Shown one piece after another: positions 471 to 54,578 of a stretch of 64,000 nt of DNA. Position 1 is the first letter of the stretch. The number at the start of each line of letters is the position of its first letter. The stretch is from Candidatus Woesearchaeota archaeon (GTDB taxonomy: Archaea; Nanobdellota; Nanobdellia; UBA10117; JABICX01): assembly GCA_018692915.1 (NCBI GenBank), contig JABHLG010000006.1, forward strand, positions 5,627 to 69,626, in the 5' to 3' direction. Under the pieces are notes generated by a model that saw nothing but the letters and a program-made list of their open reading frames with translations, had not been told where the DNA came from and ran no database searches. Both the position numbers and the translations under genes were made by a program.

Positions 471-1328
471 TTATTTATGCATAGCTTCTCTTTGTAGGAG
501 AAGAATATCTTCTGTTGTAAGTTTCTTTTTGCTTTTAAGTTTCTCTTTAACTGCTTCTGTTTTTTTATGTATTAATTCATAGCCTTTTCTAGCAGTTCTT
601 AATACAACTTTGTCTGCTAATCCAGACCAGTCTTTGAGTATCTTACTTAATTTATGATTCATGTGACCAATTTGAACTTTAATGTTCTTTAGAATTAATT
701 GAACTGTATTTCTTTTTGCTTTGATGTCAGCAATGTCCTTTGATAATTTAGTTAATTCTTCAAATATTTGAGAGCTTTCAGTTGCTAATTTTTGGATTTC
801 TGCATGCATTTTATCTGCTTTGATTTTAAGGTCTTTAGCATTTCTATAATCAGAATCAGAGCCTCTTAAACTCTCTTCGTAAGCAATACTTTTCTTTAAT
901 TCAGATTTTACTCTTTTAATTTGGTCCATAGCTTGTTTTTCTTTTTTAAAGCTTAGAACTTCAATCTGCATGTTGTATTCCATATCTTTAATCTGCTTTC
1001 TTAGGTTGCTAGATGGTGTAATATTCTCTCTGCTTGTCTTTCTGTCTTTTTTTGTTTTTCTTACATTTGCAAGAGTCTCATTGTATAATTTATTAGCATC
1101 TTCACGTTCAGATTTAAGTTTGTGTATATTTTTATCTACGTCATGTTTTTTATCTTTAAGTTCTTTAGCTTTGCTAATTAAAGAATTAAGTTGTTTGTCT
1201 AGACTGTTTTTCTGCTTGTAATGTTCTTCTTTTTGTCCACCAAATTCTTTAAGTTTAGAACTAATTATTTGAATTTCTCTTTTTAGTGATTCAACTTTTT
1301 GTTCTATTTCCACATTACTTTCTTTCAC
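471..1328 (-). CDS. Coiled-coil protein (archaeal COG1340-like)
   Basis: 285-aa ORF with a GTG start. K/E/L-rich heptad-like sequence throughout. Position and composition resemble the conserved archaeal coiled-coil protein family. Confidence 0.5.
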   Translation of the reverse strand: MKESNVEIEQKVESLKREIQIISSKLKEFGGQKEEHYKQKNSLDKQLNSLISKAKELKDKKHDVDKNIHKLKSEREDANKLYNETLANVRKTKKDRKTSRENITPSSNLRKQIKDMEYNMQIEVLSFKKEKQAMDQIKRVKSELKKSIAYEESLRGSDSDYRNAKDLKIKADKMHAEIQKLATESSQIFEELTKLSKDIADIKAKRNTVQLILKNIKVQIGHMNHKLSKILKDWSGLADKVVLRTARKGYELIHKKTEAVKEKLKSKKKLTTEDILLLQREAMHK

Positions 1329-1356
1329 TTTTGCATCTCCCTTGTTGTTGGAGTAT

Positions 1357-1440
1357 TGCGAGGTTTCCCTCGCAAAACACTAATTTTTATTCTCTATTGA
1401 AAATCAAAGATTTTCAATTCCGCAAATTGTATAACAATTA
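1357..1440. repeat. Two-hairpin intergenic element related to the hairpin-element family
   Basis: Hairpin tgcgagg-tttc-cctcgca (1357..1374) and hairpin attgaaaatc-aaa-gattttcaat (1396..1418). The second shares gaaaatcaaagattttc with 51133..51149. The tail gcaaattgtataacaatt resembles the right arm of the other copies. Confidence 0.4.
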
Positions 1441-1443
1441 GCG

Positions 1444-1746
1444 TTATCCGAATAAAGCACCTAATCCAGCAGCAGCTTCTTCATTGTTTTCTTCTTTCTT
1501 TTCTTCCTTTGGTTCTTCAGCTGGAGCTTCACTTGATGGTGCAGCAGCGCCGGCAGCAGGAGCAGCAGCAATAGTTGTTTCAGCTAGGACTTTTTCTATG
1601 TCAACGTCCTTTAATGCTGTTACAGTTGCTTTCACTCTTGCATCGTCAACTTTAACGCCTGCAGCAGTTAGTGTCTTTTTTAAGTTCTCGTCATTTATTG
1701 TCTGCCCTGCTTTGTGCAGTAACAGAGCACCGTATAGATATTCCAT
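1444..1746 (-). CDS. rpl12: Ribosomal stalk protein P1 (L12e)
   Basis: MEYLYGALLLH N-terminus, Ala/Glu-rich hinge, and the conserved C-terminal peptide AAAGLGALFG. Confidence 0.9.
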   Translation of the reverse strand: MEYLYGALLLHKAGQTINDENLKKTLTAAGVKVDDARVKATVTALKDVDIEKVLAETTIAAAPAAGAAAPSSEAPAEEPKEEKKEENNEEAAAGLGALFG

Positions 1747-1748
1747 TT

Positions 1749-2717
1749 CTATTGGCCTCCTTGATTGTCATCTTTTGTCTCCGCAGGAGTTTCCTCTTTT
1801 GGAGCTGATTCAACTTCATTATCTGAAGTTTCAGATGATTCTGATTGTTCCTCTTTAACTAGTGCGTCAGGAACTTTTTCTTTTAATGTAGCAGCTTGAG
1901 ATTCTGCTTTCTTAAGTAAATGCTCTTTTGTTTCATCACATAAAATATCTGCACCAAATGCTAATTTCTTTGCATCAGTGTGAGCTTCTTGTAATTTGAT
2001 TGTAACTGTTTCTGGTGTAAGAATGTTTGCACCAAGAGCTAGTTTCTTAGCATTTAAGATTGCTTGTTTAAGATTATCTGTGTATTCATCAATATCGATA
2101 TTAAGAACACTGCGCTTGTATACTTCACCATTTTCTACAGCAACAACTAAGTTTAGACCAATTTTCATTGGTTTAATATCTAAACGTGCTAATATTGCAG
2201 CAGCAGCAGCAGGTACTGGTTCACCTTCTTTAACAACTAATGAGTCTTTTTTAACTACAACTTTTCCACCATCGATTCCAGCAACAATATTTGCTGCACC
2301 TAAATCTCCAATAATTGGTCCTGGTGCAAATGGTGTTGGACCTGCTTTAACCCAAATATCTTCCGGCGCAATTTGTCCAGTTTTTGCTGGAGCATCAGTC
2401 ATGTTATCTTTAAGAATTTTAAATAATTCAAATGCATTTTTATTTGTTAAAATAAGTGCAGGCATTCCTTGAATATATTCTCTGATTTGTTTTAGTTCTT
2501 CTTTTCCACATTTGTCTAAAGCTAATTTAATTAATCTTTTTCTTGTTACAATTATTTCAGCATGCTCTTTAATTTTAGAGCGTATAACTTGACTTTGTCT
2601 ACTAGGGAGATTTTCTAAATTAATAACTGCAATCGTTTTGTATTTTGGAAGTTCCTTGATAATATTATTTACCATATCTTTCTTCCAAGGTTGAACATGT
2701 GCTGTGTGCTCTGCCAT
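1749..2717 (-). CDS. rpl10: Ribosomal stalk protein P0 (uL10)
   Basis: 322 aa with typical P0 N-terminal and insertion domains. Sits in the L1-P0-P1 operon order. Acidic tail is present. Confidence 0.9.
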   Translation of the reverse strand: MAEHTAHVQPWKKDMVNNIIKELPKYKTIAVINLENLPSRQSQVIRSKIKEHAEIIVTRKRLIKLALDKCGKEELKQIREYIQGMPALILTNKNAFELFKILKDNMTDAPAKTGQIAPEDIWVKAGPTPFAPGPIIGDLGAANIVAGIDGGKVVVKKDSLVVKEGEPVPAAAAAILARLDIKPMKIGLNLVVAVENGEVYKRSVLNIDIDEYTDNLKQAILNAKKLALGANILTPETVTIKLQEAHTDAKKLAFGADILCDETKEHLLKKAESQAATLKEKVPDALVKEEQSESSETSDNEVESAPKEETPAETKDDNQGGQ

Positions 2718-3364
2718 TATATTTTAATTGGAGCCCCCATAGTTGTTTTGATTAGAATGTTTTTGATATTAGCGTTTTTTCTTGGAAGTGAGTTTTCAAT
2801 TTGGTCTATTGCAAATAATATATTTTCTGCAAGTTTTTCATCATCCATTTTTTCATCACCTATTCTGCAACTTGCGATAGGCATTTTTGATATCATGATT
2901 TTTGAAGTATTTTTTAATTTCTTAACAATTGGGTCTAAGTTTAAGTTTGGAGGAACGATTTGTCCACCTTTTGGATTTGGCATTTTACCAATTGGACCAA
3001 AATACTTACCAAAAACCTGTGCGATTTGAGGCATTATGTTTGCTTGACCAATAAAGAAATCATATTTTCTAGCTAATTTTCTAACTTTTCTTGCGTCTTT
3101 GTATTCTGGAAAATTATCTGTGAAAACAACATTATCGCATGCAGATACATTTGTCTTCATTTCTTGACCAACTAAAGCACATACTGTTGCGTCTTTTCCT
3201 CGGCCATGTGGTAATGTAATAAAGTCATCTATTTTTGCTTCTTTTTTAATATCAAATTCTTTTAGATTTATAATTAAGTCAAATGATTGAGAAAACTTTC
3301 GTTCTTTTGATTTTTCTCTAGCTAGTTTTATCGCTTCAAGGATTTTTTGTTTATTTGCTGCCAT
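2717..3364 (-). CDS. rpl1: Ribosomal protein uL1
   Basis: MAANKQKILEAIKLAREKSKERKFSQSFDLIINLK... is a typical L1 N-terminus. I prefer the internal ATG at 3364 over the ORF-track start at 3394. Confidence 0.9.
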   Translation of the reverse strand: MAANKQKILEAIKLAREKSKERKFSQSFDLIINLKEFDIKKEAKIDDFITLPHGRGKDATVCALVGQEMKTNVSACDNVVFTDNFPEYKDARKVRKLARKYDFFIGQANIMPQIAQVFGKYFGPIGKMPNPKGGQIVPPNLNLDPIVKKLKNTSKIMISKMPIASCRIGDEKMDDEKLAENILFAIDQIENSLPRKNANIKNILIKTTMGAPIKI

Positions 3365-3462
3365 TTTAAGATTGCCATAATAGAAGGTCAACAATTCAAT
3401 TGTCGGCTGACGCCTTCTGCTAAAGCAGTGATTGAAACTTCCAATATGCTTTTATAAATGTT

Positions 3463-3930
3463 GTGGTATCTGTATTTATGCCTACAAAGACGCTGAATTA
3501 CAAGCCATTTTTAGGATTTGTATTATCATATTCTTTACTTTTTTATTTCTTAGGACATCTTGACGCTATGCATAATGTTGAGGTAGTAGATGATTTTTAT
3601 TTTGGCTTTCTTACATTAATAGGATTATTTGTATTTCTAAGTATGATATCTACATATAAGCTTTTTGAGAGTAAATTCTTGAATTTTAATGAATTTGTGT
3701 TATTCTCAGGATTTGGAACATTAATTTTACCTATTTCAGTTTGGGGTTTGGCATGGATTAGCTGGTTTTCAATGAAGACAGGTAATTTGACTTTATGGAA
3801 AATTGGTATTATAAAAATAAGTATTCCATGGGCTTGGTTTATTCCATTTCATATATTTATGACCTTACTATTTGTAATTGTAACTTCGCTTATCGTGTAT
3901 AAAAAATTACATCTTAAGAGAGTAAGTTAA
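3463..3930 (+). CDS. Hypothetical multi-pass membrane protein
   Basis: 155-aa ORF with 4-5 hydrophobic segments. No recognisable motif. Confidence 0.4.
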   Translation: MVSVFMPTKTLNYKPFLGFVLSYSLLFYFLGHLDAMHNVEVVDDFYFGFLTLIGLFVFLSMISTYKLFESKFLNFNEFVLFSGFGTLILPISVWGLAWISWFSMKTGNLTLWKIGIIKISIPWAWFIPFHIFMTLLFVIVTSLIVYKKLHLKRVS

Positions 3931-6009
3931 ACTATCTAATATTTTTTCTTCTTCATCTGTTTCAACTTTAAAGAAAGGTAGCCAGCAATCTTTCTTAGAA
4001 TTGATTTTTATACCAAATGCGTTTAGGAAACTTTGTATTTGAGAATATTTTACTTTAGAAGCCATTTTTTCAGCAACAGGCAAATCCATATATTTTGGCT
4101 TTTGAGTAAAAGATATTTTCTGAAAGTTTGCCAGCATAGAGGTATTACTTGTCACTTTATTACCTGAAATGTTTAATATTTTCATTCTAGCTAAAGAACT
4201 TACTATACCTGAAACTTCATTAAAACCAAGACCTGTTTTTACAAAAAGGTCTGAGACTGTTGTTTGAGATGTTTCATTAATTATATCTAATACTTTTTTT
4301 TGTATTGGCGATAAGTTAGCCACATTTGTAGGTAGTCGTATTGTTGATAATTTATTTGTTAAGGAGAATATTTGAAAATTATTCATGTCAAATAATATAT
4401 CAAAATTATTTTTGGCAGAAGAGCAGCTTGCTAAAAGACACGGACGTAAAATTACAGATATGTTTTTTATTTTAGATTTCTCAAGAGTTTCAATTTCTTT
4501 TATACCGATTTTAGGCTCTAATATGTACGCTGATTTCTTAGCAATACTTTTCTTAGCAATTGGTTTAGAAATATTGGAGGACTCTACAGATTTACTTGGT
4601 TTGTAATCCTTTACTGATTTCTTTAAATCAAATGTTTTTGCTCGACCTCCATGCTGGCTTCGTCTAACTCTTATGTCAACAAAAATTGGATAATCTGTTG
4701 CTCCAATTAATAATGCTTTACCAACAGGAAGGTTTCGTATTTCTCTTTCAGTTTCACCAGTTATACCTTCAAATGAATTTGAAATTGCTTTTAAGTCCCC
4801 CGGATTTGATACTTGCATTGCAATTTGACTTGTGCACTGGCTTAAAACCGATTTGTCAACTCTAGCAGGTCTTTGAGATATAACACATAATCCAAGACCG
4901 AATTTTCTTCCTTCTGCAGCAATTGTTCGAATAATTGAAGAAGATTTAGCTTCACCATATCCTCTTTCTGGACAAAAGTTGTGCGCTTCTTCTATGATTA
5001 AAAAAAATGGAGGAATTTCATCACGTTTACGTTTTTCAAAAAGTTCTGTTAATAATGATTTTACCGCAATCTGCTGAAGCTCGGGAGGTGAACCTTTAAG
5101 ATTTACAATTGAAAGTCTATTTGGTCGTATAAATTCTGAAACAGCTGTTGGGCTAAATGAAAATAAATTTGTTTTCATTAATTGTTGAAGTCCAGATATT
5201 ATGTTCCATTTTGCATTTGATTCAATAATATTTAATTCATCAACAATATCTTGAAATCCTATTTTTGATTTACTTTCCTCAAGTATATTTATCGTATTAT
5301 GAATTAATCCAGTTTGACCAGAGGATATTTTGAATGGCATAGCTTGAATTATACCATAAGCATCTTGCGGAACTTCAAGTTTTAATTGTGATGCTTCAGG
5401 ATTTACCTCTGTATTAATTGTAAACTCTTTTACAATATCTGCAAAACCTTTTGGTGTAACTCTATAATTTTTGAAATATTTTACATCATCTTTACTTGTA
5501 TTTGGATATTTAATATCTGAATATTCTCCGTGTGGGTCAATAACAACACAAGGCACACCATAGCTAGCAAGTTCTTCTAGTAAAACACCAATTGTATAAG
5601 ATTTACCACCACCACTTTTTGCTAAGACTGCTAAGTGTTTTGTAATAATTTTCTTTGGGTCAATAAATGCTTTTAGATTGTCTTTACCTTCTAAAAAACC
5701 CAGATATAATCCTTCTTTTTTAATTCCAATTATATTTGAAATGTAATAATCATTTGCAGTAAAAATTTGCGTTCCAGGTGCTAAAGGTGTTCTTGGTTTT
5801 CTAAGTAAACCTCTATCGTTTCGATAACCAACAATTGCACAAATAGCCGTTGTGTGCTGACCTGCTTCAATTTCAAGAACTTGAGATAAAACAGGACCAA
5901 TCTCTGCATGGTTTGCTACGATATAGTCCCATTTCTTGACAGGATTTTCTACTTTAAATCTAAAATCGTGAGTAGTAGTTCTACCGTAAATAACTCCAAG
6001 TGGTTTCAT
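3907..6009 (-). CDS. herA: HerA-like (DUF87/FtsK-HerA superfamily) ATPase with a C-terminal extension of about 230 aa
   Basis: N-terminal HAS-barrel-like region. Walker A is LAKSGGGKSYT and Walker B is FFLIIEEAHNF. The extra C-terminal region contains a wHTH-like segment (LSPIQKKVLDIINETSQTTVSDL...SSLARMKIL). Confidence 0.75.
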   Translation of the reverse strand: MKPLGVIYGRTTTHDFRFKVENPVKKWDYIVANHAEIGPVLSQVLEIEAGQHTTAICAIVGYRNDRGLLRKPRTPLAPGTQIFTANDYYISNIIGIKKEGLYLGFLEGKDNLKAFIDPKKIITKHLAVLAKSGGGKSYTIGVLLEELASYGVPCVVIDPHGEYSDIKYPNTSKDDVKYFKNYRVTPKGFADIVKEFTINTEVNPEASQLKLEVPQDAYGIIQAMPFKISSGQTGLIHNTINILEESKSKIGFQDIVDELNIIESNAKWNIISGLQQLMKTNLFSFSPTAVSEFIRPNRLSIVNLKGSPPELQQIAVKSLLTELFEKRKRDEIPPFFLIIEEAHNFCPERGYGEAKSSSIIRTIAAEGRKFGLGLCVISQRPARVDKSVLSQCTSQIAMQVSNPGDLKAISNSFEGITGETEREIRNLPVGKALLIGATDYPIFVDIRVRRSQHGGRAKTFDLKKSVKDYKPSKSVESSNISKPIAKKSIAKKSAYILEPKIGIKEIETLEKSKIKNISVILRPCLLASCSSAKNNFDILFDMNNFQIFSLTNKLSTIRLPTNVANLSPIQKKVLDIINETSQTTVSDLFVKTGLGFNEVSGIVSSLARMKILNISGNKVTSNTSMLANFQKISFTQKPKYMDLPVAEKMASKVKYSQIQSFLNAFGIKINSKKDCWLPFFKVETDEEEKILDSLTYSLKM

Positions 6010-6063
6010 AATATAATATCTACTGCGAATTGTTTTTAAGAAGTTATAGCTTGTTGTATATAA

Positions 6064-6621
6064 TTAGGCTCGGATTATTTTTCCGTCTTTGATGATGCGA
6101 GATGGCTTTCTTTTATGTAACAGACCTGCATCTAGAACAATATCAACCTTACCTGAAAATATTTTATATGCTTCTCTTGAAGAATATATTTCAGGATTTC
6201 TAGCGATGTTTGCAGAAGTTGATATTATTGGTTCTTCAAATTTCTTTAGTAATTTTCGAGCAATAGGATTTGATGTAATTCTAAAAGCAAAATCTGGACC
6301 AATCCATTCTGGCCAGATTTCTTTTCGTTTAGATATTATTGTTGTTGGCTCTCTTGAGCGAGTTAGTTCTCTTTCTTCTTTAGTTACATTTCCATATTTT
6401 TCAGCTTGTCTGATGTTAGAACACAGAACTAAATATCCCGTTGCATTTACTCGTTTTTTGATTTTAGTTATTTTTTCAACAGACTCTTTATTAAATGGAT
6501 TACATCCAATTCCATAGCAAGTTTCAGTTGGATATATAACTAAGCCGCCTTGTTTCAGAACTTCTGCAGCTTTCTTAATATTAGTTAGGTTGGGTTTTAG
6601 TAATTCAGTTTTCATAGCCAT
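6064..6621 (-). CDS. tsaC: L-threonylcarbamoyladenylate synthase (Sua5/YrdC/TsaC family)
   Basis: VIYPTETCYGIGCNP and ISTSANI motifs. Overlaps kae1 by 10 nt, giving an operon for t6A synthesis. Confidence 0.85.
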   Translation of the reverse strand: MAMKTELLKPNLTNIKKAAEVLKQGGLVIYPTETCYGIGCNPFNKESVEKITKIKKRVNATGYLVLCSNIRQAEKYGNVTKEERELTRSREPTTIISKRKEIWPEWIGPDFAFRITSNPIARKLLKKFEEPIISTSANIARNPEIYSSREAYKIFSGKVDIVLDAGLLHKRKPSRIIKDGKIIRA

Positions 6622-7589
6622 GTAACGTCAACATCATCTGTTCTCCAGTGTTGATTAATTGCAGTGTCTTTCATTTTATAATTAGCTTTTTGTTCTAGAA
6701 TTCCTTGCCAAGCAATCATTGCACCATTATCTCCTGCAAGAGCCATTGGAACAACCGCGAATTTTACACCACGCTCTTTTGACATGATTTTTAACATTTC
6801 TTGAAGTCGAGAGTTTGCAGCAACTCCACCAGTTAGAAGAATTTCGTTTTTGTTAATGTGTGCAATTGCTCGTTCTGTTGCTTCTGTTAGCTCTGCAAAA
6901 ACAGTTTCTTGCGCAGAGAAACATAAATCTTCTGTCTTGTGTTTTCCAGTTTGAACTAATTGATTAATTTTAGTTTGAATTCCTGAAAAAGCAAAATCCA
7001 TTCCTTTGATTGTGTAAGGCAATTCGATGTAGTTCTTACCCTTTTTTGCAAGTTTATCTATTGTTGGACCTGCAGGAAATCCCATTCCCATTGACCTGCC
7101 AATTACATCAATGAAATTTCCAACACCGATGTCGAGAGTTTCGCCAAAAACCCTGTATCTGCCAGACGCAAGAGCAAGAATTTGTGTGTTTGCTCCAGAT
7201 ACATAAAGCGTAATTGGGTCTTTAAATCCAGAAGTTAGTTTTCCAATTTCAATATGTGCAATACAATGATTTACTCCAATTAGTGGAACTTTCAAAAGGC
7301 TTGCAAGTGAGCGAGCAGCAACTGCTCCAACTCTCAAACATGCGCCAAGTCCAGGACCTTGTGCAAATGCAACTATATCAATATCTTTTGGTTTAATTTT
7401 AGCAGTTTTCAAAGCTCTGTCAAGGACAAACTGATACATAAGAACATGATGTTGGGCAGCTTTGCTTGGATGAATTCCACCTTTTTCAGTTGTAAAATTA
7501 GATTTCTCATTAGCTAACACTTTTCCTTTCTCATTAACTATTCCAATTCCAAGTGTATGTGCTGTTGATTCTATTCCCAGACATATCAT
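6612..7589 (-). CDS. kae1: tRNA N6-adenosine threonylcarbamoyltransferase Kae1
   Basis: MICLGIESTAHTLGIGIV, NHCIAHIE and GGVAANSRL motifs of Kae1/TsaD. No Bud32 fusion. Confidence 0.9.
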   Translation of the reverse strand: MICLGIESTAHTLGIGIVNEKGKVLANEKSNFTTEKGGIHPSKAAQHHVLMYQFVLDRALKTAKIKPKDIDIVAFAQGPGLGACLRVGAVAARSLASLLKVPLIGVNHCIAHIEIGKLTSGFKDPITLYVSGANTQILALASGRYRVFGETLDIGVGNFIDVIGRSMGMGFPAGPTIDKLAKKGKNYIELPYTIKGMDFAFSGIQTKINQLVQTGKHKTEDLCFSAQETVFAELTEATERAIAHINKNEILLTGGVAANSRLQEMLKIMSKERGVKFAVVPMALAGDNGAMIAWQGILEQKANYKMKDTAINQHWRTDDVDVTWL

Positions 7590-12944: not shown

Positions 12945-14312
12945 TTACATTCCAGGTAGTTTCATACCACCGGGTAAGCCACCTTTGCCACCCATCATTT
13001 TAGCTAATTGCTTCATCTTTTGAGGGCTGCCCATTGACTTCATCATTTTCTGCATCTGCTTGTATTGCTTAAGTAATCCGCGCACTTCTTTTTCATCAGT
13101 GCCCGAGCCATTAGCGATTCTGTTGATTCTAGAAGCATTCATAACATCAGGATTTTCCTTTTCTGTTGGAGTCATAGATTGCATAATAAATTTCCATGTT
13201 TTCATTTTGCTTTCTTGACCTTTAAGCGCATCTTTTGGAACTGCTCCACCCATTCCAGGTATCATACCCATAATTTGTGAGAGCGGACCCATTTTTTGCA
13301 TTGCTTCCATTTGATCATATAAATCTTGAAGTGAAAGTCCTTGACCTTTTGTAACTTTCTTAGCTAATTTCTCAGCTTTATCTTTGTCAATTGCACCTTC
13401 TGCTTTTTTTAGAAGAGTTTCTAAATCTCCCATTCCAAGAATTCGAGATACAAAGTTCTTTGGCTTGAACTCTTCAATTGCATCCATTTTTTCTCCAACT
13501 CCAATAAACATAACTTTTGCTCCAGTAGTTGCGCAAGCTGTTAATGCACCTCCACCTTTTGCAGTTCCATCTAGTTTTGTAATTACAACACCTGTAACTC
13601 CAACGTTTTTGTGGAAAGATTCAGCTTGAGATTGTGCACCTTGACCAATGTCTCCAGAAAGAACTAGAAGTGCTTCATCAGGATTTACTGCTTTATTTAA
13701 CACCTTGATTTCATCTGTTAGCTCTTTGTTTAGAGAATCTCGTCCAGCTGTATCAATTATAACAACATCATATTTTTTGAATTCCTTTTCAAATTCTTTG
13801 ATTATATCTTCAGGTTTTTTAGCAGATGAATTTCCATAAAAATCAACTTTCATTGCTCTAGCTAGCTGCTGTAGCTGTGCATATGCAGCAGGTCGCCATG
13901 TGTCTGTTTGAACAACTGCAACTTTTTTACCTTGTTTTTTATAGTATCGTCCAAGTTTTCCTGCAGTTGTTGTCTTTCCAGACCCAAATAGACCAACTAG
14001 CATTATCTTAGTTGGCTTTTTCTTAAATTCAATCTCTTTGAACTCTTTTCCAAGGAAGTTAGTTAGTTCTTCAAAAACAATATTTACAACATGCTCGCGA
14101 GTTGTTAGACCTTTTGGAGGAGTTTCATTTGTTCCTCTGTCTCTGATTTTCTGAGCAATTTCTTTAGCTAAAGTAATATTAACATCAGCTGCTATCAATG
14201 CTTTTTTGATATCAGAAGATAATTCAATAACTGCTTTTTTATCAACTAGCCCTATATTAGTTATTTTCTTCAAACTTTCCTTTAGTCTATCTGATAATGA
14301 GTCTAATACCAT
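12945..14312 (-). CDS. srp54: Signal recognition particle protein SRP54
   Basis: N domain, G domain (GLFGSGKTTT, DTAGR, TKLDG) and a Met-rich M domain. Confidence 0.95.
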   Translation of the reverse strand: MVLDSLSDRLKESLKKITNIGLVDKKAVIELSSDIKKALIAADVNITLAKEIAQKIRDRGTNETPPKGLTTREHVVNIVFEELTNFLGKEFKEIEFKKKPTKIMLVGLFGSGKTTTAGKLGRYYKKQGKKVAVVQTDTWRPAAYAQLQQLARAMKVDFYGNSSAKKPEDIIKEFEKEFKKYDVVIIDTAGRDSLNKELTDEIKVLNKAVNPDEALLVLSGDIGQGAQSQAESFHKNVGVTGVVITKLDGTAKGGGALTACATTGAKVMFIGVGEKMDAIEEFKPKNFVSRILGMGDLETLLKKAEGAIDKDKAEKLAKKVTKGQGLSLQDLYDQMEAMQKMGPLSQIMGMIPGMGGAVPKDALKGQESKMKTWKFIMQSMTPTEKENPDVMNASRINRIANGSGTDEKEVRGLLKQYKQMQKMMKSMGSPQKMKQLAKMMGGKGGLPGGMKLPGM

Positions 14313-16410: not shown

Positions 16411-16656
16411 TTAAAGCATTTTCTTTAATAATTTTTTAGGGTTAAATATTTCTAAATCTTTGTATTCTTGCCCTGTTCCACAGTCTCTAATTTTCTGAGC
16501 AATTTCTTTAGCTAAAGTAATATTAACATCAGCTGCTATCAATGCTTTTTTGATATCAGAAGATAATTCAATAACTGCTTTCTTATCAACTAGACCAATA
16601 TTTGTTATTTTCTTCAAACTTTCTTTTAGTCTGTCTGATAATGAGTCTAATACCAT
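16411..16656 (-). pseudogene. In-frame chimera: first 58 codons of srp54 fused to the last about 22 codons of ftsY
   Basis: 16484..16656 matches 14140..14312 (7 of 173 mismatches, all synonymous). 16411..16479 matches 17849..17917 (4 of 69 mismatches). The junction lies at a tgttcc microhomology. Confidence 0.85.
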
Positions 16657-17462: not shown

Positions 17463-17852
17463 TTGCCACTGATATTTAATATGTCAGAAATTGTTGATAA
17501 TATTTGGGAAAAAACTCGCAAGATTGCGTTAGAATTAACTATTGAAGATGCTAAAGAGATTGCAAGTGCATTTAAGTTTTTTAATGAAGCAGTTGGTACT
17601 AAGCGAATTAATGATGGAGATTATTTCTTGCATACATTTCTTGCAAATGTAGCTCGTTATCAGACTAAATTTACTGATGCGGAAAAAGATTTCTTGCTAA
17701 ATGATGCTAAAACAGGTAGAGGTCAGACAGAAACAGTTATTTTATGTATATTGAATGAGAATAGTTCTAAACATTTAGAAACCTTGGAAGAAAAGAGAGC
17801 ATATCCAATATATAATGTATTTAGTGATGCGATTAATGCTGCATATCCTTAG
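17463..17852 (+). CDS. Hypothetical protein (cassette X2)
   Basis: 129-aa ORF (non-ATG start in the track). Its stop overlaps the ftsY stop convergently. Confidence 0.3.
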   Translation: MPLIFNMSEIVDNIWEKTRKIALELTIEDAKEIASAFKFFNEAVGTKRINDGDYFLHTFLANVARYQTKFTDAEKDFLLNDAKTGRGQTETVILCILNENSSKHLETLEEKRAYPIYNVFSDAINAAYP

Positions 17853-18910
17853 AGCATTTTCTTTAATAATTTTTTAGCATTAAATAGTTCTAAATCTTTG
17901 TATTCTTGCCCTGTTCCGATGAAAAGAATTGGTTTTCCAGTTTCATAGCCCGCAGAGATTATTGCTCCACCACGCTCATCTGCATCAGTTTTTGCTACAA
18001 TTGTTCCATCAATGTTAATCATCTGAGAAAAGTATCTTGCTTGCTCAACTGCATCGTTTCCAGTTAAAGCATCTACAACTAATATTGTGAAATCAGGATG
18101 AATTACTCTTTTGATTTTCTTAAGTTCGTTCATTAAATCTTCAGAAGCGTGCTGTCTTCCAGCAGTGTCAATCATTACAATATCCAAATTTTTTGCTTTT
18201 GCATGCTCCATTGCATCATAAGCAACAGCTGCAGGGTCTGCACCATATTTGTGCTTAACCATTTTGATTTTTAGATTGTCTGCATGATGTTGTAGCTGCT
18301 CAATTGCAGCAGCCCTGAATGTATCGCCCGCTGCAAATACAACAGATTTTTTATGGTCTTGGAAATATTTTCCCAATTTAGCTAAATTAGTTGTTTTTCC
18401 AACACCATTTACACCTACAAAAAGAATTGTTAATGGCTTCTTGTTCTTTGATTCTGCTAACAAATCAATTTGTTTGGGTTTTGTAAGAACTTCTGTTAAA
18501 ATTTCCTTAAGTTTTTCAGAAATAATTTCTGCACTTGGTTTTTGTTTGTTTTCTAAAAGCTCTCTTTTAACTTCTTCAAGAATTCTTTCAGTAATATCAT
18601 AAGCAATATTATTCTGAATTAATGCATCCCCAAAATCTTCAAGAGCAGATTCTATTTTATCTTCTGAGCGCTTTGCAAAGAAACCTTTTTTCTCTTCTGA
18701 AGGGCCTGTGCCCCCTTCGACCTCCCCCGACTTCTGCGAAGTCTCCTCCAAAGGTTTATCTTCTCGGTGAAATCTTGCTGCTATTCTTTCCTTGAGGCTC
18801 TTTTTTTCTTCCTCAACAGGTTTTTCTTCTTTAATTTCTTCCTTAGGTTCCTCTACTTCTTCAACATCTTTCTTAAATTTTGAAAACGCTTCTTTTAATC
18901 GACCGAACAT
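17849..18910 (-). CDS. ftsY: SRP receptor FtsY
   Basis: K/E-rich A domain, N domain and G domain (GVNGVGKTT, DTAGR, AKTDAD). Confidence 0.95.
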   Translation of the reverse strand: MFGRLKEAFSKFKKDVEEVEEPKEEIKEEKPVEEEKKSLKERIAARFHREDKPLEETSQKSGEVEGGTGPSEEKKGFFAKRSEDKIESALEDFGDALIQNNIAYDITERILEEVKRELLENKQKPSAEIISEKLKEILTEVLTKPKQIDLLAESKNKKPLTILFVGVNGVGKTTNLAKLGKYFQDHKKSVVFAAGDTFRAAAIEQLQHHADNLKIKMVKHKYGADPAAVAYDAMEHAKAKNLDIVMIDTAGRQHASEDLMNELKKIKRVIHPDFTILVVDALTGNDAVEQARYFSQMINIDGTIVAKTDADERGGAIISAGYETGKPILFIGTGQEYKDLELFNAKKLLKKML

Positions 18911-47516: not shown

Positions 47517-47556
47517 GAATAATATTGTTTTTAACTTAGAGATTTATTATAGTATT

Positions 47557-47610
47557 ATGCAATACATATCTGATTTACATCTTCATAGCAGATTTTCTAG
47601 AGCTACATCC
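47557..47610 (+). pseudogene. Displaced duplicate of the first 18 codons (including ATG) of the PHP-domain gene
   Basis: Encodes MQYISDLHLHSRFSRATS, against MKYIADLHLHSRFSRATS at 47688..47741. 10 of 54 nt differ, 7 at third positions, giving 2 aa changes. Confidence 0.85.
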
Positions 47611-47687
47611 AAACTTTTTCAGAAAAAGTTTGACCAAAAACGCTGCTCATATATAATTTGTATTAAATCGCAGCAGGAGATATATGT
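47611..47687. repeat. Hairpin element, short form (family copy), abutting the ATG of the PHP gene
   Basis: aaactttttcagaaaaagttt (identical to 51078..51098) followed by aaaacgctgctcatatataatttgtattaaatcgcagcagg (compare 51155..51196). Confidence 0.8.
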
Positions 47688-48980
47688 ATGAAATATATTG
47701 CTGACTTGCACTTACATAGCAGATTTTCTAGAGCTACATCTAACAAGCTAGACCTACCTAATCTTGAGAAATATGGTAAGATAAAGGGACTTAATTTGCT
47801 TGGAACGGGAGATTTTATGCATCCACAATGGCAGAAAGAGCTAAAGTCTGAACTAACTACAGATGGTTCTGGAATTTACAAAACAAAGTCAAGATATCCT
47901 TTTGTTCTTTCAAATGAGATTTCTTTAATGTATCGTCAGGGCGATAAAGGTCGTAGAGCACACGTTGTTCTTCTTGCGCCAAATATGGATGTTGTGGACC
48001 AAATTACAGATTACTTCAAAAAATTTGGTAGAGTTGATTATGATGGTCGACCAATATTCGGTAAGAGTATAATTGAAGTTACAGAAGGGCTAAATAATAT
48101 ATCTAATGATATTGAAATAATACCTGCACACATATGGACACCTTGGTTTGGTTTGCTTGGTTCAAAATCAGGTTTTGATTCATTTAAAGAAGCACTTGGT
48201 GACCAAATAAAGCATATTCATTCATTTGAAACAGGACTTAGTTCTGACCCTGAGATGAATTGGCGAGTTTCTGAACTAGATAAATTTACAGCTCTGTCTT
48301 TTTCAGATGCACATAGCCATTGGCCTTGGAGAATTGGTAGGGAAGCAACTTTGTTTGACTTGAAAAATCTAACTTACAAAGATTTAATTAACGCAATTCG
48401 AACACGAGACGGCTATGAAGGAACAATTGAAGTTGACCCTGGTTATGGACGGTATCATCATGATGGACACAGAAATTGTGGAGTTAGTTTCATTCCACAG
48501 ATTTCTAAAAAGTATAATGATATTTGCCCAGTTTGTAAAAAGCCACTTACAATTGGAGTTATGTATCGAGTTGAAGAATTAGCAGATAGGCCAGAAGGAT
48601 ATACACCAAAAAATGCAGCAAAAGTATACAAATTACTACCTTTATCTGATTTGATTTCTGGAGTAGTTGGAACAGGAGTAGCAACGCAAAAGGTTTGGGA
48701 AATTTTCAACAAACTAATTGATAATTTTGGTTCAGAATACAATGTTCTTCTAAATGTTTCTGCAGATGATTTGCAAAAAGTTGTGGATGAAAATATAGTT
48801 CAGTTTATCTTAAAGAATCGTGCAGGTCAGATTGAAGTTAAGCCAGGTTATGATGGTGTTTATGGCGAAGCAATCTTTGGAGAGAAACCACAACCTAAAC
48901 CATTTGTATCTGAACGCCCGGCTAGTATGGAACAACAAAAACAAATAGAAAAACCCCAAAAGAGTTTAACTGATTTCTAA
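47688..48980 (+). CDS. PHP-domain phosphoesterase with an internal zinc ribbon (COG1379-like)
   Basis: ADLHLHSRFSRATS (PHP motif I), HIWTPW, FSDAHS, CPVCKKPLT. The architecture matches the archaeal COG1379 family. Confidence 0.7.
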   Translation: MKYIADLHLHSRFSRATSNKLDLPNLEKYGKIKGLNLLGTGDFMHPQWQKELKSELTTDGSGIYKTKSRYPFVLSNEISLMYRQGDKGRRAHVVLLAPNMDVVDQITDYFKKFGRVDYDGRPIFGKSIIEVTEGLNNISNDIEIIPAHIWTPWFGLLGSKSGFDSFKEALGDQIKHIHSFETGLSSDPEMNWRVSELDKFTALSFSDAHSHWPWRIGREATLFDLKNLTYKDLINAIRTRDGYEGTIEVDPGYGRYHHDGHRNCGVSFIPQISKKYNDICPVCKKPLTIGVMYRVEELADRPEGYTPKNAAKVYKLLPLSDLISGVVGTGVATQKVWEIFNKLIDNFGSEYNVLLNVSADDLQKVVDENIVQFILKNRAGQIEVKPGYDGVYGEAIFGEKPQPKPFVSERPASMEQQKQIEKPQKSLTDF

Positions 48981-51003: not shown

Positions 51004-51038
51004 AATAAATTCTAAAATAACAGCTTTATAAAACTTCT

Positions 51039-51077
51039 TAGTTCAAGACTTCAGTAACCTTAGCTTTTATGTCTGCG
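51039..51077 (-). pseudogene. Displaced duplicate of the last 13 codons (including stop) of rps27e
   Basis: Encodes ADIKAKVTEVLN*, against ADIKSKVTEVLN* at 51235..51197. 5 of 39 nt differ, 4 of them synonymous third-position changes. Confidence 0.85.
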
Positions 51078-51196
51078 AAACTTTTTCAGAAAAAGTTTCA
51101 TCACCAAGCTGAACTTTGTTCAGCGAGGCCAAGAAAATCAAAGATTTTCTCTGGAAAACGTTGCTCATATGTGTTGGTGTTCAATCGCAACAATAA
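51078..51196. repeat. Hairpin element, long (composite) form, abutting the rps27e stop codon
   Basis: Left hairpin at 51078..51098. Inner two-hairpin module catcaccaagc-tgaactttgttca-gcgaggccaagaaaatcaaagattttctctgg at 51099..51154. Right arm at 51155..51196. Confidence 0.8.
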
Positions 51197-51409
51197 TTAA
51201 TTTAATACTTCAGTAACCTTAGATTTTATATCTGCTTTTCCGCCTTTTGATTTAGCTAAAAGTTCATCACAAACAAGGCATTTTACATCGCTTGCAGCTT
51301 TTTCGAAAATAATTTGAATATTTTTACATTTAGCACATTTTACTTTTATAAAACTTGAACTTGGACCTTTATCTTTTACCATTTTAGTTGTTCTCCTTTT
51401 GTTTTGCAA
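51197..51409 (-). CDS. rps27e: Ribosomal protein S27e
   Basis: Zinc ribbon VKCAKCKN...VKCLVCDE. The true start may be the internal MVKDKG. Confidence 0.85.
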   Translation of the reverse strand: MQNKRRTTKMVKDKGPSSSFIKVKCAKCKNIQIIFEKAASDVKCLVCDELLAKSKGGKADIKSKVTEVLN

Positions 51410-52495: not shown

Positions 52496-53743
52496 CTATA
52501 GTTTCTTTCGTTTGACATAGCTTAAAGGGTTCTTGATTGATTTGCAGATATTATCTGGCTGACAAATTCCGATTTCAACATAGTATTCTTTGCAGTTTGA
52601 TGGTGGAACTTTCTTTGGATTTCTTCTGTGCCAGTTTAGTTGCGAAATAATATAACCTTCTTTTAGTGGCTCAGCATTTTTATCATTCCATGCTTTTATG
52701 GTCTGTTCAATTTCTTGCCAGCTCCAATTACAACATTTAAGAAAGTTTAGAAGTGCAAATAAACCTCGTTTTCTACCATCGGTTAATCCATTAAGAATAA
52801 GTTTCATACATGGAGGAAATTTGTTTTCATGAACTTTACCTTCAATTTCAGTTATTTGCGTGACTTCTCCTGTGCTAGATTTTTCTAATTCTCTCTGTCT
52901 TTGTTCTATTCTTGCAGAGCCAAGTAATTCTAATGCAGAGCCACGCTTGACTTTTTCTGGATTAAGAAATGAGTCATTTATTTCTTTGATGTTTTCAGGT
53001 TTAGCCCAATCTCTATCAAATTTTTTAATATCTTTTGGATCGATTGTGATGCTTACAAGTCCGGTTTTTTCATGTAAAGAGTATGGTGCTCGAATTAAGT
53101 GTCTTGGCTTACCTAGAGCCAGGTCTAGACCAATGTATTTACTTATATCTTCACTAGTTGGTTTCTTGCCAATTCGCTCAACAACTTTTCTTAAGTCACC
53201 TTCTTTTTCTTTAATTTTAACCCAAAGTTGTTTGTTGATTATATTACGTAAGTAAAGAAGAATTGCTTCACTTGCTTCTCCATACATATCTTTAGTTTTC
53301 TTTTTTCCAACTTTATCTGGAAATGCTTCAAATGGAATTGCAATATGCCATCCACGATTTCCTGAGAATTTAATTTGCGGTTCAACACCTTCAACATCTA
53401 GTGCTTCAAGAATTGTTTCAGCAGCAAGAGTTGAGTAATCAAAATGTGGACAATCAATATCAACAATTAAATCCCAACCTTTTCGTAAAGCATCTATTTC
53501 TCTTTTTGTAGATTCTGATGAAAGATGCATTGGGTCAAACCAACGCTCTTGCGAAATATGAAAACTAGTTGCACCTTTGCGTGCAAGTGCTTCAATTTCT
53601 TTTGGATATTGAATAATATCTGGTCGCTTTCCAAAAAAGCCACCTTGCATTACAATTCCAACTTCTCGGTCTTGACTAACTCTCGCTAGTTCTTTCATAA
53701 CTTCTGGATTTGAATAATGTTCTATCGCTATACTTTGTTTCAT
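52496..53743 (-). CDS. priS: DNA primase: PriS catalytic domain fused to a PriL-CTD-like (Fe-S) domain
   Basis: LIVDIDCPH and FSGNRGWHIAIPF (AEP catalytic motifs). The C-terminal region FPPCMKLILNGLTDGRKRGLFALLNFL ... C..C cysteines is PriL-CTD-like. ATG at 53743 is preferred. The track ORF extends through the upstream repeat. Confidence 0.8.
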   Translation of the reverse strand: MKQSIAIEHYSNPEVMKELARVSQDREVGIVMQGGFFGKRPDIIQYPKEIEALARKGATSFHISQERWFDPMHLSSESTKREIDALRKGWDLIVDIDCPHFDYSTLAAETILEALDVEGVEPQIKFSGNRGWHIAIPFEAFPDKVGKKKTKDMYGEASEAILLYLRNIINKQLWVKIKEKEGDLRKVVERIGKKPTSEDISKYIGLDLALGKPRHLIRAPYSLHEKTGLVSITIDPKDIKKFDRDWAKPENIKEINDSFLNPEKVKRGSALELLGSARIEQRQRELEKSSTGEVTQITEIEGKVHENKFPPCMKLILNGLTDGRKRGLFALLNFLKCCNWSWQEIEQTIKAWNDKNAEPLKEGYIISQLNWHRRNPKKVPPSNCKEYYVEIGICQPDNICKSIKNPLSYVKRKKL

Positions 53744-53752
53744 CTTAATCCG

Positions 53753-53867
53753 AACCTTGTGAGGTTTAAGAGACATCACCGAGCAAAACCTTAGCTTTGC
53801 GTGGCCAAGAAAACGCAAAGCGTTTTCTCTGGAATTGCATAGCAATTTGATGTATAATAAATTTGCA
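53753..53867. repeat. Hairpin element, long (composite) form, diverged copy, immediately upstream of the primase start
   Basis: Left hairpin aacct-tgtg-aggtt (53753..53766). Inner module catcaccgagc-aaaaccttagctttgc-gtggccaagaaaacgcaaagcgttttctctgg (53774..53832). Right arm aattgcatagcaatttgatgtataataaatttgc. Confidence 0.7.
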
Positions 53868-53900
53868 AAATTGAGAATATAAGATTTTGTTTACTATGTT

Positions 53901-54578
53901 TTATGCAATAGCAATGTTATGTATTTCATTAGCATCAGAGATATAATTAGTTGAACACCAATGGCTGAACTGAATAATTCTTCCTTGATTTTGCTTTCTC
54001 ATGTTTTTACTTATCTTAACTTTATTTGGTGTTTTTGGATTAAAAAAACTCATGCTCCAATTAAGTTTTTTCATACGCGTAGTTAAACTTTCTAAGTTTG
54101 ATGTTACAAATAAAATTCCTTTATGATGCTCTTCTGTAGTTTGTTCGGGTTGATCTAATATATTCGTATAAAATGTGCGGCTACCTTCTTTAGGTACTTC
54201 TTTTATATTTGGTCTGCTATTAAATAATCGTAATTCTCTATCATATTCTGAGGATAATGTAATTCCAATCGATCCAATATCTTTATCATTAATTAGACCT
54301 ACTTCTGGCTGGTCTGCTAATCTTCTAGCTAACATATATTGTTTAAATCCAATATGTGGTTTTTTCAATTCTTCTTTTGATAAATAAGGATCCCAAATAG
54401 CATAAAACCAGTCACGATTATTCTCATTATCTTTTAGATGATTATTTATTCTAGCTATTTTTTTAGTTAGAGTTAATTCTTCTTTAAAGCCAGGATGTTT
54501 TACACGAATAGCTTCATTAACTATATTTCCTAAGCCTATTTCATAATAATAATAATATTTAGGTGCTTTATTATCCAT
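53901..54578 (-). CDS. Hypothetical protein
   Basis: 225-aa ORF, no motif recognised. Confidence 0.35.
   Translation of the reverse strand: MDNKAPKYYYYYEIGLGNIVNEAIRVKHPGFKEELTLTKKIARINNHLKDNENNRDWFYAIWDPYLSKEELKKPHIGFKQYMLARRLADQPEVGLINDKDIGSIGITLSSEYDRELRLFNSRPNIKEVPKEGSRTFYTNILDQPEQTTEEHHKGILFVTSNLESLTTRMKKLNWSMSFFNPKTPNKVKISKNMRKQNQGRIIQFSHWCSTNYISDANEIHNIAIA

What the first reader, a model, noticed from the sequence alone, without database searches (positions are those of the whole stretch)
53744..53870. Diverged long-form element upstream of the primase shows compensatory changes in both inner hairpins, consistent with a structured RNA
Aligning the inner module of 51099..51154 with 53774..53832 shows conserved single-stranded blocks (catcacc[a/g]agc, ggccaagaaaa, ttttctctgg). 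The paired segments differ but stay complementary. Hairpin 1 is gctgaac-ttt-gttcagc against gcaaa-accttag-ctttgc. Hairpin 2 is gaaaatc-aaa-gattttc against gaaaacgc-aaa-gcgttttc. The left hairpin is also replaced by a different but still self-complementary sequence (aacct-tgtg-aggtt against aaacttttt-cag-aaaaagttt). Preservation of pairing with sequence change is the classic signature of selection on RNA (or DNA cruciform) structure. Here the element fills the 5' leader region of the primase gene in the opposite orientation relative to the downstream gene than at 47611, so it is not simply a 5'-UTR motif. The ORF-track extension of the primase (53744..53845) is just translation through this element.
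Basis: partly seen in the sequence, partly recalled or inferred. Interest (0 to 1): 0.7.

Follow-up and report, generated by a model that had tools for sequence, protein, structure and literature searches.

The report
DPANN two-hairpin palindromic insertion module
The stretch upstream of the primase gene holds one copy of a roughly 55-base, two-hairpin module that is scattered through many DPANN archaeal genomes, sometimes in-frame inside essential genes, so it is best read as a new family of small palindromic insertion elements and not as a primase-specific regulatory RNA.

Summary
The unit is smaller than proposed. It is a 54-nt two-hairpin module (53779-53832, minus strand, plus a 5-nt tail to 53774), shared only with 51104-51154.

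The "left hairpin" and the right flank of the primase copy are not homologous to the 47611/51078 element. The left hairpin lies between the primase TATA-like box and the ATG, and it persists in sister strains that lack the module.

A pattern scan found the module in 52 loci from 16 DPANN MAGs. On 41 non-redundant copies, 97% of cells pair and 140 cells show double changes against 40 in shuffles (0/500). Rfam and the literature searches gave nothing.

Several results point to a mobile element:
- Copies sit in tandem, convergent and divergent intergenic regions.
- Copies sit in-frame inside LeuRS and TruD genes.
- Near-identical strains differ in whether they carry it.
- There is no strand bias relative to flanking genes.
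- No target-site duplications and no neighbouring transposase were found.

Best reading (confidence about 0.55): a new REP/RPE-like palindromic insertion element of DPANN archaea that acts as folded single-stranded nucleic acid. A structured-RNA role is not excluded. A primase-leader role is unlikely.

The parts
53779..53832 (-). Two-hairpin module, primase-side copy (C). Hairpin a is 53832..53805: CCAGAGAAAACGC-UUU-GCGUUUUCUUGG, with a bulged G. Hairpin b is 53804..53779: CC-AC-GCAAAGC-UAAG-GUUUUGC-UC-GG.
   Evidence: The covariance model R1 scores it at 55 bits, E=3e-12. The fold is and the family structure.
53774..53778 (-). 5-nt tail UGAUG that follows the module in both window copies. It is specific to this lineage and absent from other DPANN copies. 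Its ATG (53776) is in frame with the primase.
51104..51154 (-). Two-hairpin module, copy B. Hairpin a is 51154..51129 and hairpin b (GCUGAAC-AAA-GUUCAGC) is 51128..51104. It is nested in the 51077-51196 element. The tail UGAUG is at 51103..51099.
   Evidence: R1 scores it at 49 bits, E=1e-10. It is identical in strain L011 and absent from L012.
53753..53766 (.). Small inverted repeat aacct-tgtg-aggtt. It is NOT part of the module. It lies between the primase TATA-like box (CTTAAAC, plus-strand 53764-53770) and the ATG at 53743.
   Evidence: It is conserved in L011/L012, which lack the module.
53833..53847 (.). Flanking hairpin AATTGC-ATA-GCAATT next to the module. It is strain-specific; L011 has CAAATC-GAAA-GATTTG in its place.
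51077..51196 (+). Composite 120-nt element B: left hairpin AAACTTTTTCAGAAAAAGTTT (51078-51098), then the module, then the right part AAAACGTTGCTCATAT..AATCGCAAC (51155-51196). It sits between two copies of the S27e C-terminal coding end (51038-51076 displaced, 51197-51235 in use).
   Evidence: repeat D19. The empty site in L012 shows a 159-bp insertion.
47611..47686 (+). Short element A: the same left hairpin and right part, without the module. It sits between two copies of the first 18 codons of the EndoQ-like gene (47556-47612 displaced, 47687-47743 in use).
   Evidence: (repeat D12). The site is empty in L012. The right parts of A and B are similar (p<0.0005).

Best explanation
What it is. 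The conserved object at 53774-53832 is one copy of a small (51-63 nt) palindromic insertion module found across DPANN archaea (Woesearchaeota, Pacearchaeota, Nanoarchaeota). It consists of two directly abutting hairpins, 5'-CC...GG|CC...GG-3'.
- The first hairpin has an invariant base, CCA(G)AGAAAA / UUUUCUUGG, with one bulged nucleotide, and a freely variable but always self-complementary top.
- The second hairpin takes one of two forms. It is either the mirror image of the first (palindromic subtype) or a GCYGAAC..GTTCRGC-type hairpin (the subtype in this window).

How I infer it works.
- It works as folded single-stranded nucleic acid. The two stacked hairpins form a dumbbell that brings the flanking DNA together.
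- The conserved bulged stem base is the part recognised by a trans-acting factor that has not been identified.
- The tops only need to pair. They would be kept perfect either by selection for folding or by intrastrand templated correction.
- It spreads as non-autonomous selfish DNA, like bacterial REP/REPIN and Rickettsia RPE elements. It lands mostly between genes and occasionally in-frame inside genes.

In this window. Both copies lie in lineage-specific insertions or recombination junctions: downstream of S27e, and between the 225-aa gene and the primase promoter. Neither is a conserved regulator of the neighbouring genes.

Shown and inferred.
- Shown: the family, its structure, its distribution, the strain polymorphism, and the in-frame copies.
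- Inferred: the ssDNA intermediate, the trans-acting enzyme, and the absence of a host function.
For: Family and taxonomic range:
- An exact-pattern scan of one genome per species returned 56 loci. 52 are from DPANN MAGs. The other 4 are three bacterial coding matches and one non-hairpin match in a contig labelled uncultured bacterium. Viral contigs gave 0 hits.
- Model R1 finds about 61 sites in 400 kb of these loci. It finds 2 weak hits in 830 kb of other contigs.

Structure:
- 97.2% of cells pair against 82.2% in shuffles.
- 140 cells show a change on both sides against 40 in shuffles.
- The covariation score is 0.357 against 0.092.
- All three results are 0/500 in shuffles. Sliding the partners drops pairing to 38-62%.
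- RNAalifold predicts the same two hairpins.
- In my own count, 373 of 433 top positions are Watson-Crick against 130 after shuffling.

Insertion behaviour:
- Module present in B, absent from A, in otherwise homologous elements.
- Present at site C in the window, absent in L011/L012, whose primase is 95% identical.
- More distant relatives have only 0-36 nt upstream of the primase.
- A 31-aa in-frame insertion in LeuRS of L039.
- An 18-aa in-frame insertion in TruD of L049 that exactly matches the 54-nt module, seen against PDB 1z2z.
- Near-identical copies at two loci of one genome, L027 and L043.

No tie to transcripts:
- Contexts are 19 tandem, 9 convergent and 5 divergent.
- Sense minus antisense folding energy averages +0.13 kcal/mol, with 6 sites favouring sense and 8 favouring antisense.

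Not a known RNA: nothing in Rfam.
Against: - No target-site duplication: 2 modules with flanking direct repeats of 5 nt or more, against 2.2 in controls.
- No transposase or integrase among the listed families of 150 neighbouring proteins. Only the top 25 of 111 families were shown.
- No clean filled-versus-empty pair exists for the module alone. Site C differs from L011 by a replacement of 14 nt by 71 nt at a recombination junction. Copy B arrived inside a 159-bp composite insertion.
- Tops differ greatly between copies of one genome. That is not what a recent transposition burst looks like.
- The stem base is conserved across a whole phylum-level group, which could equally reflect a host function.
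- The conservation of hairpin a's base is partly imposed by my search pattern.
- There are no expression data.
Confidence: 0.55

Rival explanations
1. The module is a host cis-acting structured RNA carried on transcripts. Its stable hairpins, each with an A-tract, a stem-loop and a U-tract, would act as bidirectional terminators, transcript-end protectors, or insulators between closely packed leaderless transcription units.
For: - Each hairpin has the form A4-6, stem-loop, T4-6.
- Several loops are UUCG, UACG or GNRA.
- In the window, both copies lie 43-69 nt downstream of a stop codon, upstream of the next promoter, and are co-oriented with the upstream gene.
- Of the asymmetric copies in tandem contexts, 6 of 8 are co-oriented with the flanking genes (my reading).
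- On the minus (gene-sense) strand, hairpin b of copy C gains a G.U pair.
Against: - The palindromic subtype sits in-frame inside LeuRS, and the other subtype inside TruD. An efficient terminator there would be lethal.
- 5 of 33 sites lie between divergent genes.
- Folding stability shows no sense-strand advantage.
- Many loops are triloops.
- The module is absent from orthologous sites in relatives.
- The window's tops are weak stems of 2-3 bp.
Confidence: 0.2
2. The module is a folded-DNA (cruciform or three-way junction) binding site for a host protein involved in nucleoid organisation, replication or recombination. Its position at recombination junctions would reflect that role.
For: - The architecture is strand-symmetric, and the conserved arms are brought together only in the folded form, whatever the length of the tops.
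- A subset has an outer stem that makes a T-shaped junction: 7 modules with flanking inverted repeats against 2.8 in controls.
- Both window copies sit at junctions between conserved and divergent DNA: primase 95% against the 225-aa gene at 55%.
Against: - No candidate protein has been identified.
- The intragenic in-frame copies and the very uneven copy number between related genomes fit selfish spread better. The window has 2 copies in 64 kb, relatives have 0 in about 90 kb, and groundwater MAGs have many.
Confidence: 0.12
3. The module is a regulatory structured RNA in the 5' leader of the primase mRNA.
For: It lies 31 nt upstream of the primase ATG. The region folds better than shuffles, z = -3.3 to -4.2.
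Against: - The module is upstream of the TATA-like box, which sits at the position typical for this genome.
- It is absent from strains with 95% identical primase and from all relatives at 68-93%.
- The same module occurs next to unrelated genes.
Confidence: 0.03
4. The resemblance between two AT-rich hairpin-containing intergenic stretches is due to chance.
For: The genome is AT-rich (32% GC), and generic A5/T5 hairpins are common.
Against: The pattern is expected 0 times in shuffles. The R1 E-values are 3e-12 and 1e-10. Dozens of related copies exist elsewhere.
Confidence: 0.01

Closest known systems
Rickettsia palindromic elements (RPEs)
   Same: Both are short palindromic repeats in reduced genomes of host-dependent organisms. 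Both lie in intergenic DNA and are also inserted in-frame in housekeeping genes, adding a peptide (RPE description in PMC10969869). Neither has a known transposase or an obvious target-site duplication.
   Different: RPEs are about 100-150 bp, bacterial, and fall into sequence-conserved families. This module is 51-63 nt, archaeal, and has an invariant stem base with hypervariable tops. No sequence relationship was tested or is expected.
REP / REPIN / BIME elements of bacteria (RAYT-associated)
   Same: Both are 26-34-nt imperfect palindromes with a conserved base. They are often paired in inverted orientation, mosaic with other hairpin types, mostly extragenic, multi-copy, and lack target-site duplications.
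   Different: There is no GTAG/CGTC head and no RAYT-like gene was seen near copies. The two hairpins abut directly as separate hairpins instead of pairing with each other. Some copies are intragenic. The hosts are archaeal.
MITEs (including archaeal MITEs of Sulfolobus and haloarchaea; PATEs of IS200/IS605)
   Same: Both are small, non-coding, multi-copy and polymorphic between strains. The palindromic subtype has 10-nt terminal inverted repeats, CCAGAGAAAA/TTTTCTCTGG. An automated census reported a MITE-rich Woesearchaeal genome (PMC11602168).
   Different: No target-site duplications. The window subtype has no real terminal inverted repeats. No parent insertion sequence has been identified. 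The internal sequence is hypervariable instead of family-conserved.
Bidirectional intrinsic terminators
   Same: Each hairpin has an A-tract, a stem-loop and a T-tract.
   Different: The stem base is conserved beyond the tracts. Copies occur in divergent intergenic regions and inside essential ORFs.

Membership tests
Any curated RNA family (Rfam 15) | Match to a covariance model at the gathering score | tested here: not met
   No match on the window or on 18 DPANN loci carrying modules. Nothing overlapping the module with a meaningful score at E<=10.
MITE | Terminal inverted repeats | tested here: inconclusive
   The palindromic subtype has CCAGAGAAAA...TTTTCTCTGG. The window copies end in ...YGG(TGATG) and share only CC/GG.
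MITE | Target-site duplications flanking each copy | tested here: not met
   2 of 60 copies have a flanking direct repeat of 5 nt or more, against a mean of 2.2 in permuted flanks.
MITE | A cognate autonomous element or transposase with matching ends | tested here: inconclusive
   No transposase among the listed families of 150 neighbouring proteins. Whole genomes were not searched.
REP/REPIN | Short imperfect palindromes, multi-copy, often as inverted doublets | tested here: met
REP/REPIN | Conserved GTAG or CGTC head, and a RAYT gene flanked by REPs | tested here: not met
   Copies start with CCAGAG. No Y1-transposase family among the listed neighbour families. The genome-wide RAYT search was not done.
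RPE-like selfish palindromes | In-frame insertion into conserved protein-coding genes with the ORF preserved | tested here: met
   LeuRS of L039: a 31-aa insertion relative to the L192 LeuRS, in one 1069-aa ORF. TruD of L049: an 18-aa insertion relative to 1z2z that coincides with the 54-nt module.
RPE-like selfish palindromes | Sequence or size membership in the Rickettsia RPE families (about 100-150 bp) | tested here: not met
   The module is 51-63 nt. The hosts are archaeal. Sequence comparison with RPEs was not done.
Intrinsic terminator | Located at 3' ends of transcription units only | tested here: not met
   5 of 33 sites lie between divergent genes. Copies occur inside LeuRS and TruD.
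Archaeal bulge-helix-bulge intron | BHB motif at the boundaries of the inserted segment | tested here: inconclusive
   The MFE fold of the LeuRS insertion shows no two 3-nt bulges around a 4-bp helix. Both validated insertions are multiples of 3 and free of stop codons, which fits read-through. Splicing itself cannot be tested here.
Integron attC site | R''/R' boxes at the outer ends of a long imperfect hairpin, arrays of gene cassettes, and a nearby integrase | tested here: not met
   The GAAC/GTTC motifs are next to the loop, not at the hairpin base. Copies are single, not spaced in cassette arrays. No integrase among the listed neighbour families.

The most novel reading that the evidence does not exclude
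A DPANN-wide, structure-defined mobile element of about 55 nt, built as a two-hairpin 'dumbbell'. It would be the first REPIN/RPE-like system described in Archaea. An as yet unknown enzyme that recognises a bulged hairpin base in single-stranded DNA would move it. It repeatedly seeds in-frame peptide insertions in essential genes, and it marks junctions where DNA from other strains has been integrated.
Probability: 0.4. Interest if true: 0.75.

Novelty: new variant of a known kind. Interest (0 to 1): 0.6.

Why it matters
- DPANN archaea have tiny, streamlined genomes, and little is known about their mobile DNA. A phylum-wide repeat defined by shape more than by sequence, tolerated even inside LeuRS and TruD, would parallel the Rickettsia RPEs in another lineage of host-dependent organisms with reduced genomes.
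- It would point to an unidentified hairpin-recognising enzyme.
- It gives a ready covariance model for masking or annotating these repeats. They break assemblies and create false ORF extensions such as the 449-aa 'primase'.
- It removes a candidate: this is not a primase riboregulator.

Tried and rejected
- Rfam, at gathering and E-value thresholds, gave nothing.
- A peptide-pattern search for close primase loci in GTDB species representatives found none.
- The viral contig scan gave 0 hits.
- The metagenome scan with the left hairpin AAACTTTTTCNGAAAAAGTTT returned mostly unrelated contigs, because this is a generic A5/T5 hairpin. It served only as a negative control for R1.
- The C/D-box or K-turn idea (GUGAUGA on the minus strand of copy B) was dropped. 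The box is not conserved in copy C or in other genomes, and the spacing is wrong.
- attC, origin-recognition-box and BHB-intron ideas were considered and not supported (see the membership table; the ORB resemblance was recalled from memory only).
- Conserved position next to specific genes: the recurring neighbours (EndoQ, PAC2, a 79%-identical gene pair L021/L045) reflect synteny plus high copy density. The flanks do not align.
- The sense-versus-antisense stability test showed no bias.
- The target-site duplication test was negative.
- Candidate intragenic copies in L034, L038 and L043 do not lie in convincing genes.
- The second TruD hit (6155-6208) partly aligns with native TruD residues and is not counted.
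- The supplement of the MITE census paper is not held, so I could not check whether this family is in its catalogue.

Full report
**Source and setting**

The window is from a marine Candidatus Woesearchaeota (DPANN) genome with about 32% GC. On the minus strand the gene order is:

PolX, a 225-aa gene (53901-54578), [site C], a fused primase (52496-53743), GINS, L44e, S27e (51197-51409), [site B], eIF2-alpha, PAC2.

On the plus strand, a 586-aa gene is followed by [site A] and an EndoQ-like gene (47688-48980).

**The observation**

- CATCACCRAGC...GGCCAAGAAAA occurs only at 51099 and 53774, with none expected in shuffles.
- The local alignment of the two inner modules scores 47 against 11.8 for shuffles.
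- Both inner hairpins differ in sequence and stay complementary.

Three details need correction.

First, the 'single-stranded' blocks are mostly paired. GGCCAAGAAAA and TTTTCTCTGG form the lower stem of hairpin 2 with one bulged base. The CC of CATCACC pairs with the GG that precedes GGCC and closes hairpin 1.

Second, the unit is smaller than 53744-53870. Outside 53774-53832, copy C has no detectable similarity to copy B (left flank p=0.50, right flank p=0.93). By contrast, the right parts of A and B are clearly related (p<0.0005).

Third, the 'replaced left hairpin' aacct-tgtg-aggtt is unchanged in strains L011 and L012. These strains have a 95% identical primase and lack the module.

**Position relative to the primase promoter**

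In this window a TATA-like motif starts 26-28 nt before the ATG in 21 of 48 long genes. This is the geometry of leaderless archaeal mRNAs (the interpretation rests on general knowledge of archaeal promoters). The primase has CTTAAAC at exactly that place.

It follows that the small hairpin lies between the TATA box and the ATG, and that the module lies upstream of the core promoter. It is not in a 5' leader.

The 449-aa ORF is read-through. All homologues and the called gene start at MKQSIAIEHY.

**The family**

A scan of one genome per species with CCAGAGAAAAN{5,15}TTTTCTTGGCC returned 56 loci. 52 come from 16 DPANN MAGs (Woesearchaeota, Pacearchaeota, Nanoarchaeota; groundwater and other habitats). 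Three are chance matches inside bacterial genes and one is a non-hairpin match in a contig labelled uncultured bacterium. Viral contigs gave none.

The common form is two abutting hairpins:

CCAGAGAAAA[top]TTTTCTTGG | CCAAGAAAA[top]TTTTCTCTGG

This is a quasi-palindrome that reads the same on both strands. In the second subtype, the one in this window, the second hairpin is CC-NN-GCYGAAC..GTTCRGC-NN-GG or a variant.

The tops are highly diverse, with about 65 distinct ones, yet they are nearly always perfect stems. 373 of 433 positions are Watson-Crick, against 130 after shuffling.

On 41 non-redundant modules:
- RNAalifold predicts both hairpins, and 10 of 20 pairs show double changes.
- For the full 24-pair structure, 97.2% of cells pair against 82.2% in shuffles.
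- 140 cells show a change on both sides against 40 in shuffles.
- The covariation score is 0.357 against 0.092.
- All three results are 0/500. Sliding the partners lowers pairing to 38-62%.

One caveat applies. The base of the first hairpin was fixed by the search pattern, so its invariance is not independent evidence.

A covariance model (R1) gave these results:
- Only the two copies in the window, at 55 and 49 bits. A third hit at 13410 lies inside the SRP54 gene and is chance.
- About 61 sites in 400 kb of the DPANN loci.
- Only two weak hits in 830 kb of other contigs.

Rfam has no such family. Seven full-text searches found no description. An automated MITE census mentions a Woesearchaeal genome with 105 MITEs/Mb without describing families (PMC11602168). 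Its supplement could not be read.

**What kind of thing it is**

Several results point away from a gene-specific RNA and towards an insertional palindromic element.

(i) Presence or absence.
- The module is present in element B and absent from the otherwise homologous element A.
- It is present at site C and absent from L011/L012.
- Relatives with 68-93% identical primase have 0-39 nt upstream of the primase, 34-94 nt between S27e and eIF2-alpha, and carry no module in 64 kb.

(ii) Context. There are 19 tandem, 9 convergent and 5 divergent intergenic sites. Folding energy shows no difference between the sense and antisense strands (mean +0.13 kcal/mol; 6 sites favour sense and 8 favour antisense).

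(iii) Copies inside genes.
- In L039 a palindromic module with a nested outer hairpin adds 31 residues in-frame to an intact 1069-aa LeuRS. Homology to a LeuRS without the insert continues on both sides.
- In L049 a 54-nt module adds 18 residues to TruD, exactly at a gap in the alignment to the solved M. mazei TruD structure 1z2z.

This is the behaviour described for Rickettsia palindromic elements (PMC10969869). It also argues against efficient termination by the module.

(iv) Near-identical modules occur at two loci of one genome (L027, L043). The same 'popular' tops recur in different genomes.

(v) Neighbouring genes are ordinary housekeeping genes. No transposase or integrase appears among the listed families.

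Against a classical MITE, there are no target-site duplications (2 against 2.2 expected). A subset has an outer inverted repeat that would make a T-shaped junction (7 against 2.8).

**Mechanism**

My best reading, at confidence about 0.55, is a REP/RPE-like non-autonomous element that acts as folded single-stranded nucleic acid. The conserved bulged stem base would be the recognition part and the tops only need to pair. The steps 'ssDNA intermediate' and 'trans-acting enzyme' are inference.

The main rival (0.2) is a transcript-borne hairpin pair that terminates or protects RNA. In its favour are the A-tract, stem and U-tract form and the positions in the window. Against it are the intragenic and divergent-context copies and the lack of strand bias. 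A folded-DNA host binding site (0.12) is not excluded. A primase leader RNA is unlikely (0.03).

**The 'short form' and 'long form'**

A and B share a left hairpin and a right part. They sit in insertions flanked by imperfect copies of a gene end.

At site B, strain L012 shows the empty site. The window has 159 extra bases, made up of a second copy of the last 12 codons of S27e plus the 120-nt element.

At site A, the first 18 codons of the EndoQ-like gene are duplicated. The differences are concentrated in the first 27 nt, where 10 differ. The last 30 nt match at 29 positions. This pattern fits integration of DNA from another strain with one homologous crossover and one illegitimate join. It does not fit a uniformly decayed target duplication. 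This is inference.

A larger example of the same layout lies between FtsY and SRP54 (see noticed in passing).

Site C itself sits where identity between the window and L011 drops from 95% (primase) to 55% (225/234-aa gene). So the module there may have arrived with recombined DNA and not by its own transposition.

**Verdict**

Structural constraint is strongly supported. 'Structured RNA' is unproven and is not the best fit. As far as these searches can tell, the object is a member of an undescribed DPANN-wide family of small two-hairpin palindromic insertion elements.

Noticed in passing
window 47556-47612 / 47687-47743 and 51038-51076 / 51197-51235: Elements A and B are each flanked by imperfect direct copies of a gene end: the first 18 codons of the EndoQ-like gene (82% identity) and the last 12 codons plus stop of S27e (87%). 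The differences are mostly synonymous. The copy next to the element's right part is the one in use. In both cases the non-homologous join is exactly at the outer edge of the hairpin AAACTTTTTCAGAAAAAGTTT. The empty sites are seen in strain L012.
   Followed up: partly
window 14130-14312 / 16474-16656 and 17849-17917 / 16411-16479: The 5' 183 nt of SRP54 and the 3' 69 nt of FtsY are each duplicated (95% and 94%). The two copies abut and form a chimeric 81-aa ORF (16411-16656). The layout is FtsY, cargo A, SRP54 5' copy, FtsY 3' copy, cargo B (a 667-aa ORF), SRP54. It looks like two alternative FtsY-to-SRP54 junctions joined head to tail, that is, additive integration of DNA from another strain.
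   Followed up: partly
L039 3740-3835 (LeuRS ORF 945-4154) and L049 6752-6805 (TruD ORF 5852-7099): Module copies are inserted in-frame in essential genes of a groundwater DPANN MAG. They add 31 and 18 residues without breaking the ORFs.
   Followed up: yes
window 47630-47657 and 47659-47667: The right part of element A contains the best sigma-70-like match of the region (TTGACC, 16 nt spacer, TATAAT; 11 of 12), although the host is an archaeon. It also has a TATA-like TATTAAAT ending 21 nt before the new EndoQ ATG, the usual promoter position in this window. The element may therefore supply the promoter for the rebuilt gene.
   Followed up: partly
L119, L123, L148, L151, L183, L186, L190 and about 30 other metagenome loci: The left hairpin together with the next 10 nt (AAACTTTTTCNGAAAAAGTTTGATCAAAAAC; element A has ...GTTTGACCAAAAAC) recurs in many unrelated metagenome contigs. 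It is often found among other A/T-run hairpins, and sometimes next to what look by eye like tRNA gene ends (not checked with a tRNA finder). The organisms were not identified.
   Followed up: no
window, 48 gene starts: TATA-like motifs start 26-28 nt before the ATG in 21 of 48 long genes, often as CTTAAAAAC. This indicates mostly leaderless transcripts in this organism.
   Followed up: partly
window 53743-53901 compared with L011 9886-10001 and the P0003 contig: The spacer between the 225/234-aa gene and the primase is 157, 114 or 39 nt in strains whose primases are 93-100% identical. The upstream gene is only 55% identical and PolX is 82% identical. This is a sharp recombination boundary at the site of the module.
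   Followed up: partly
L019 5030-5150, L052 5300-5420, L063 7600-7720: In some groundwater MAGs the module is embedded in a larger conserved frame: a variable hairpin, then CAAAGCGCCNGCCG-ATT-[module]-TTG-CGGCNGG. The outer stem gives a three-way junction.
   Followed up: partly
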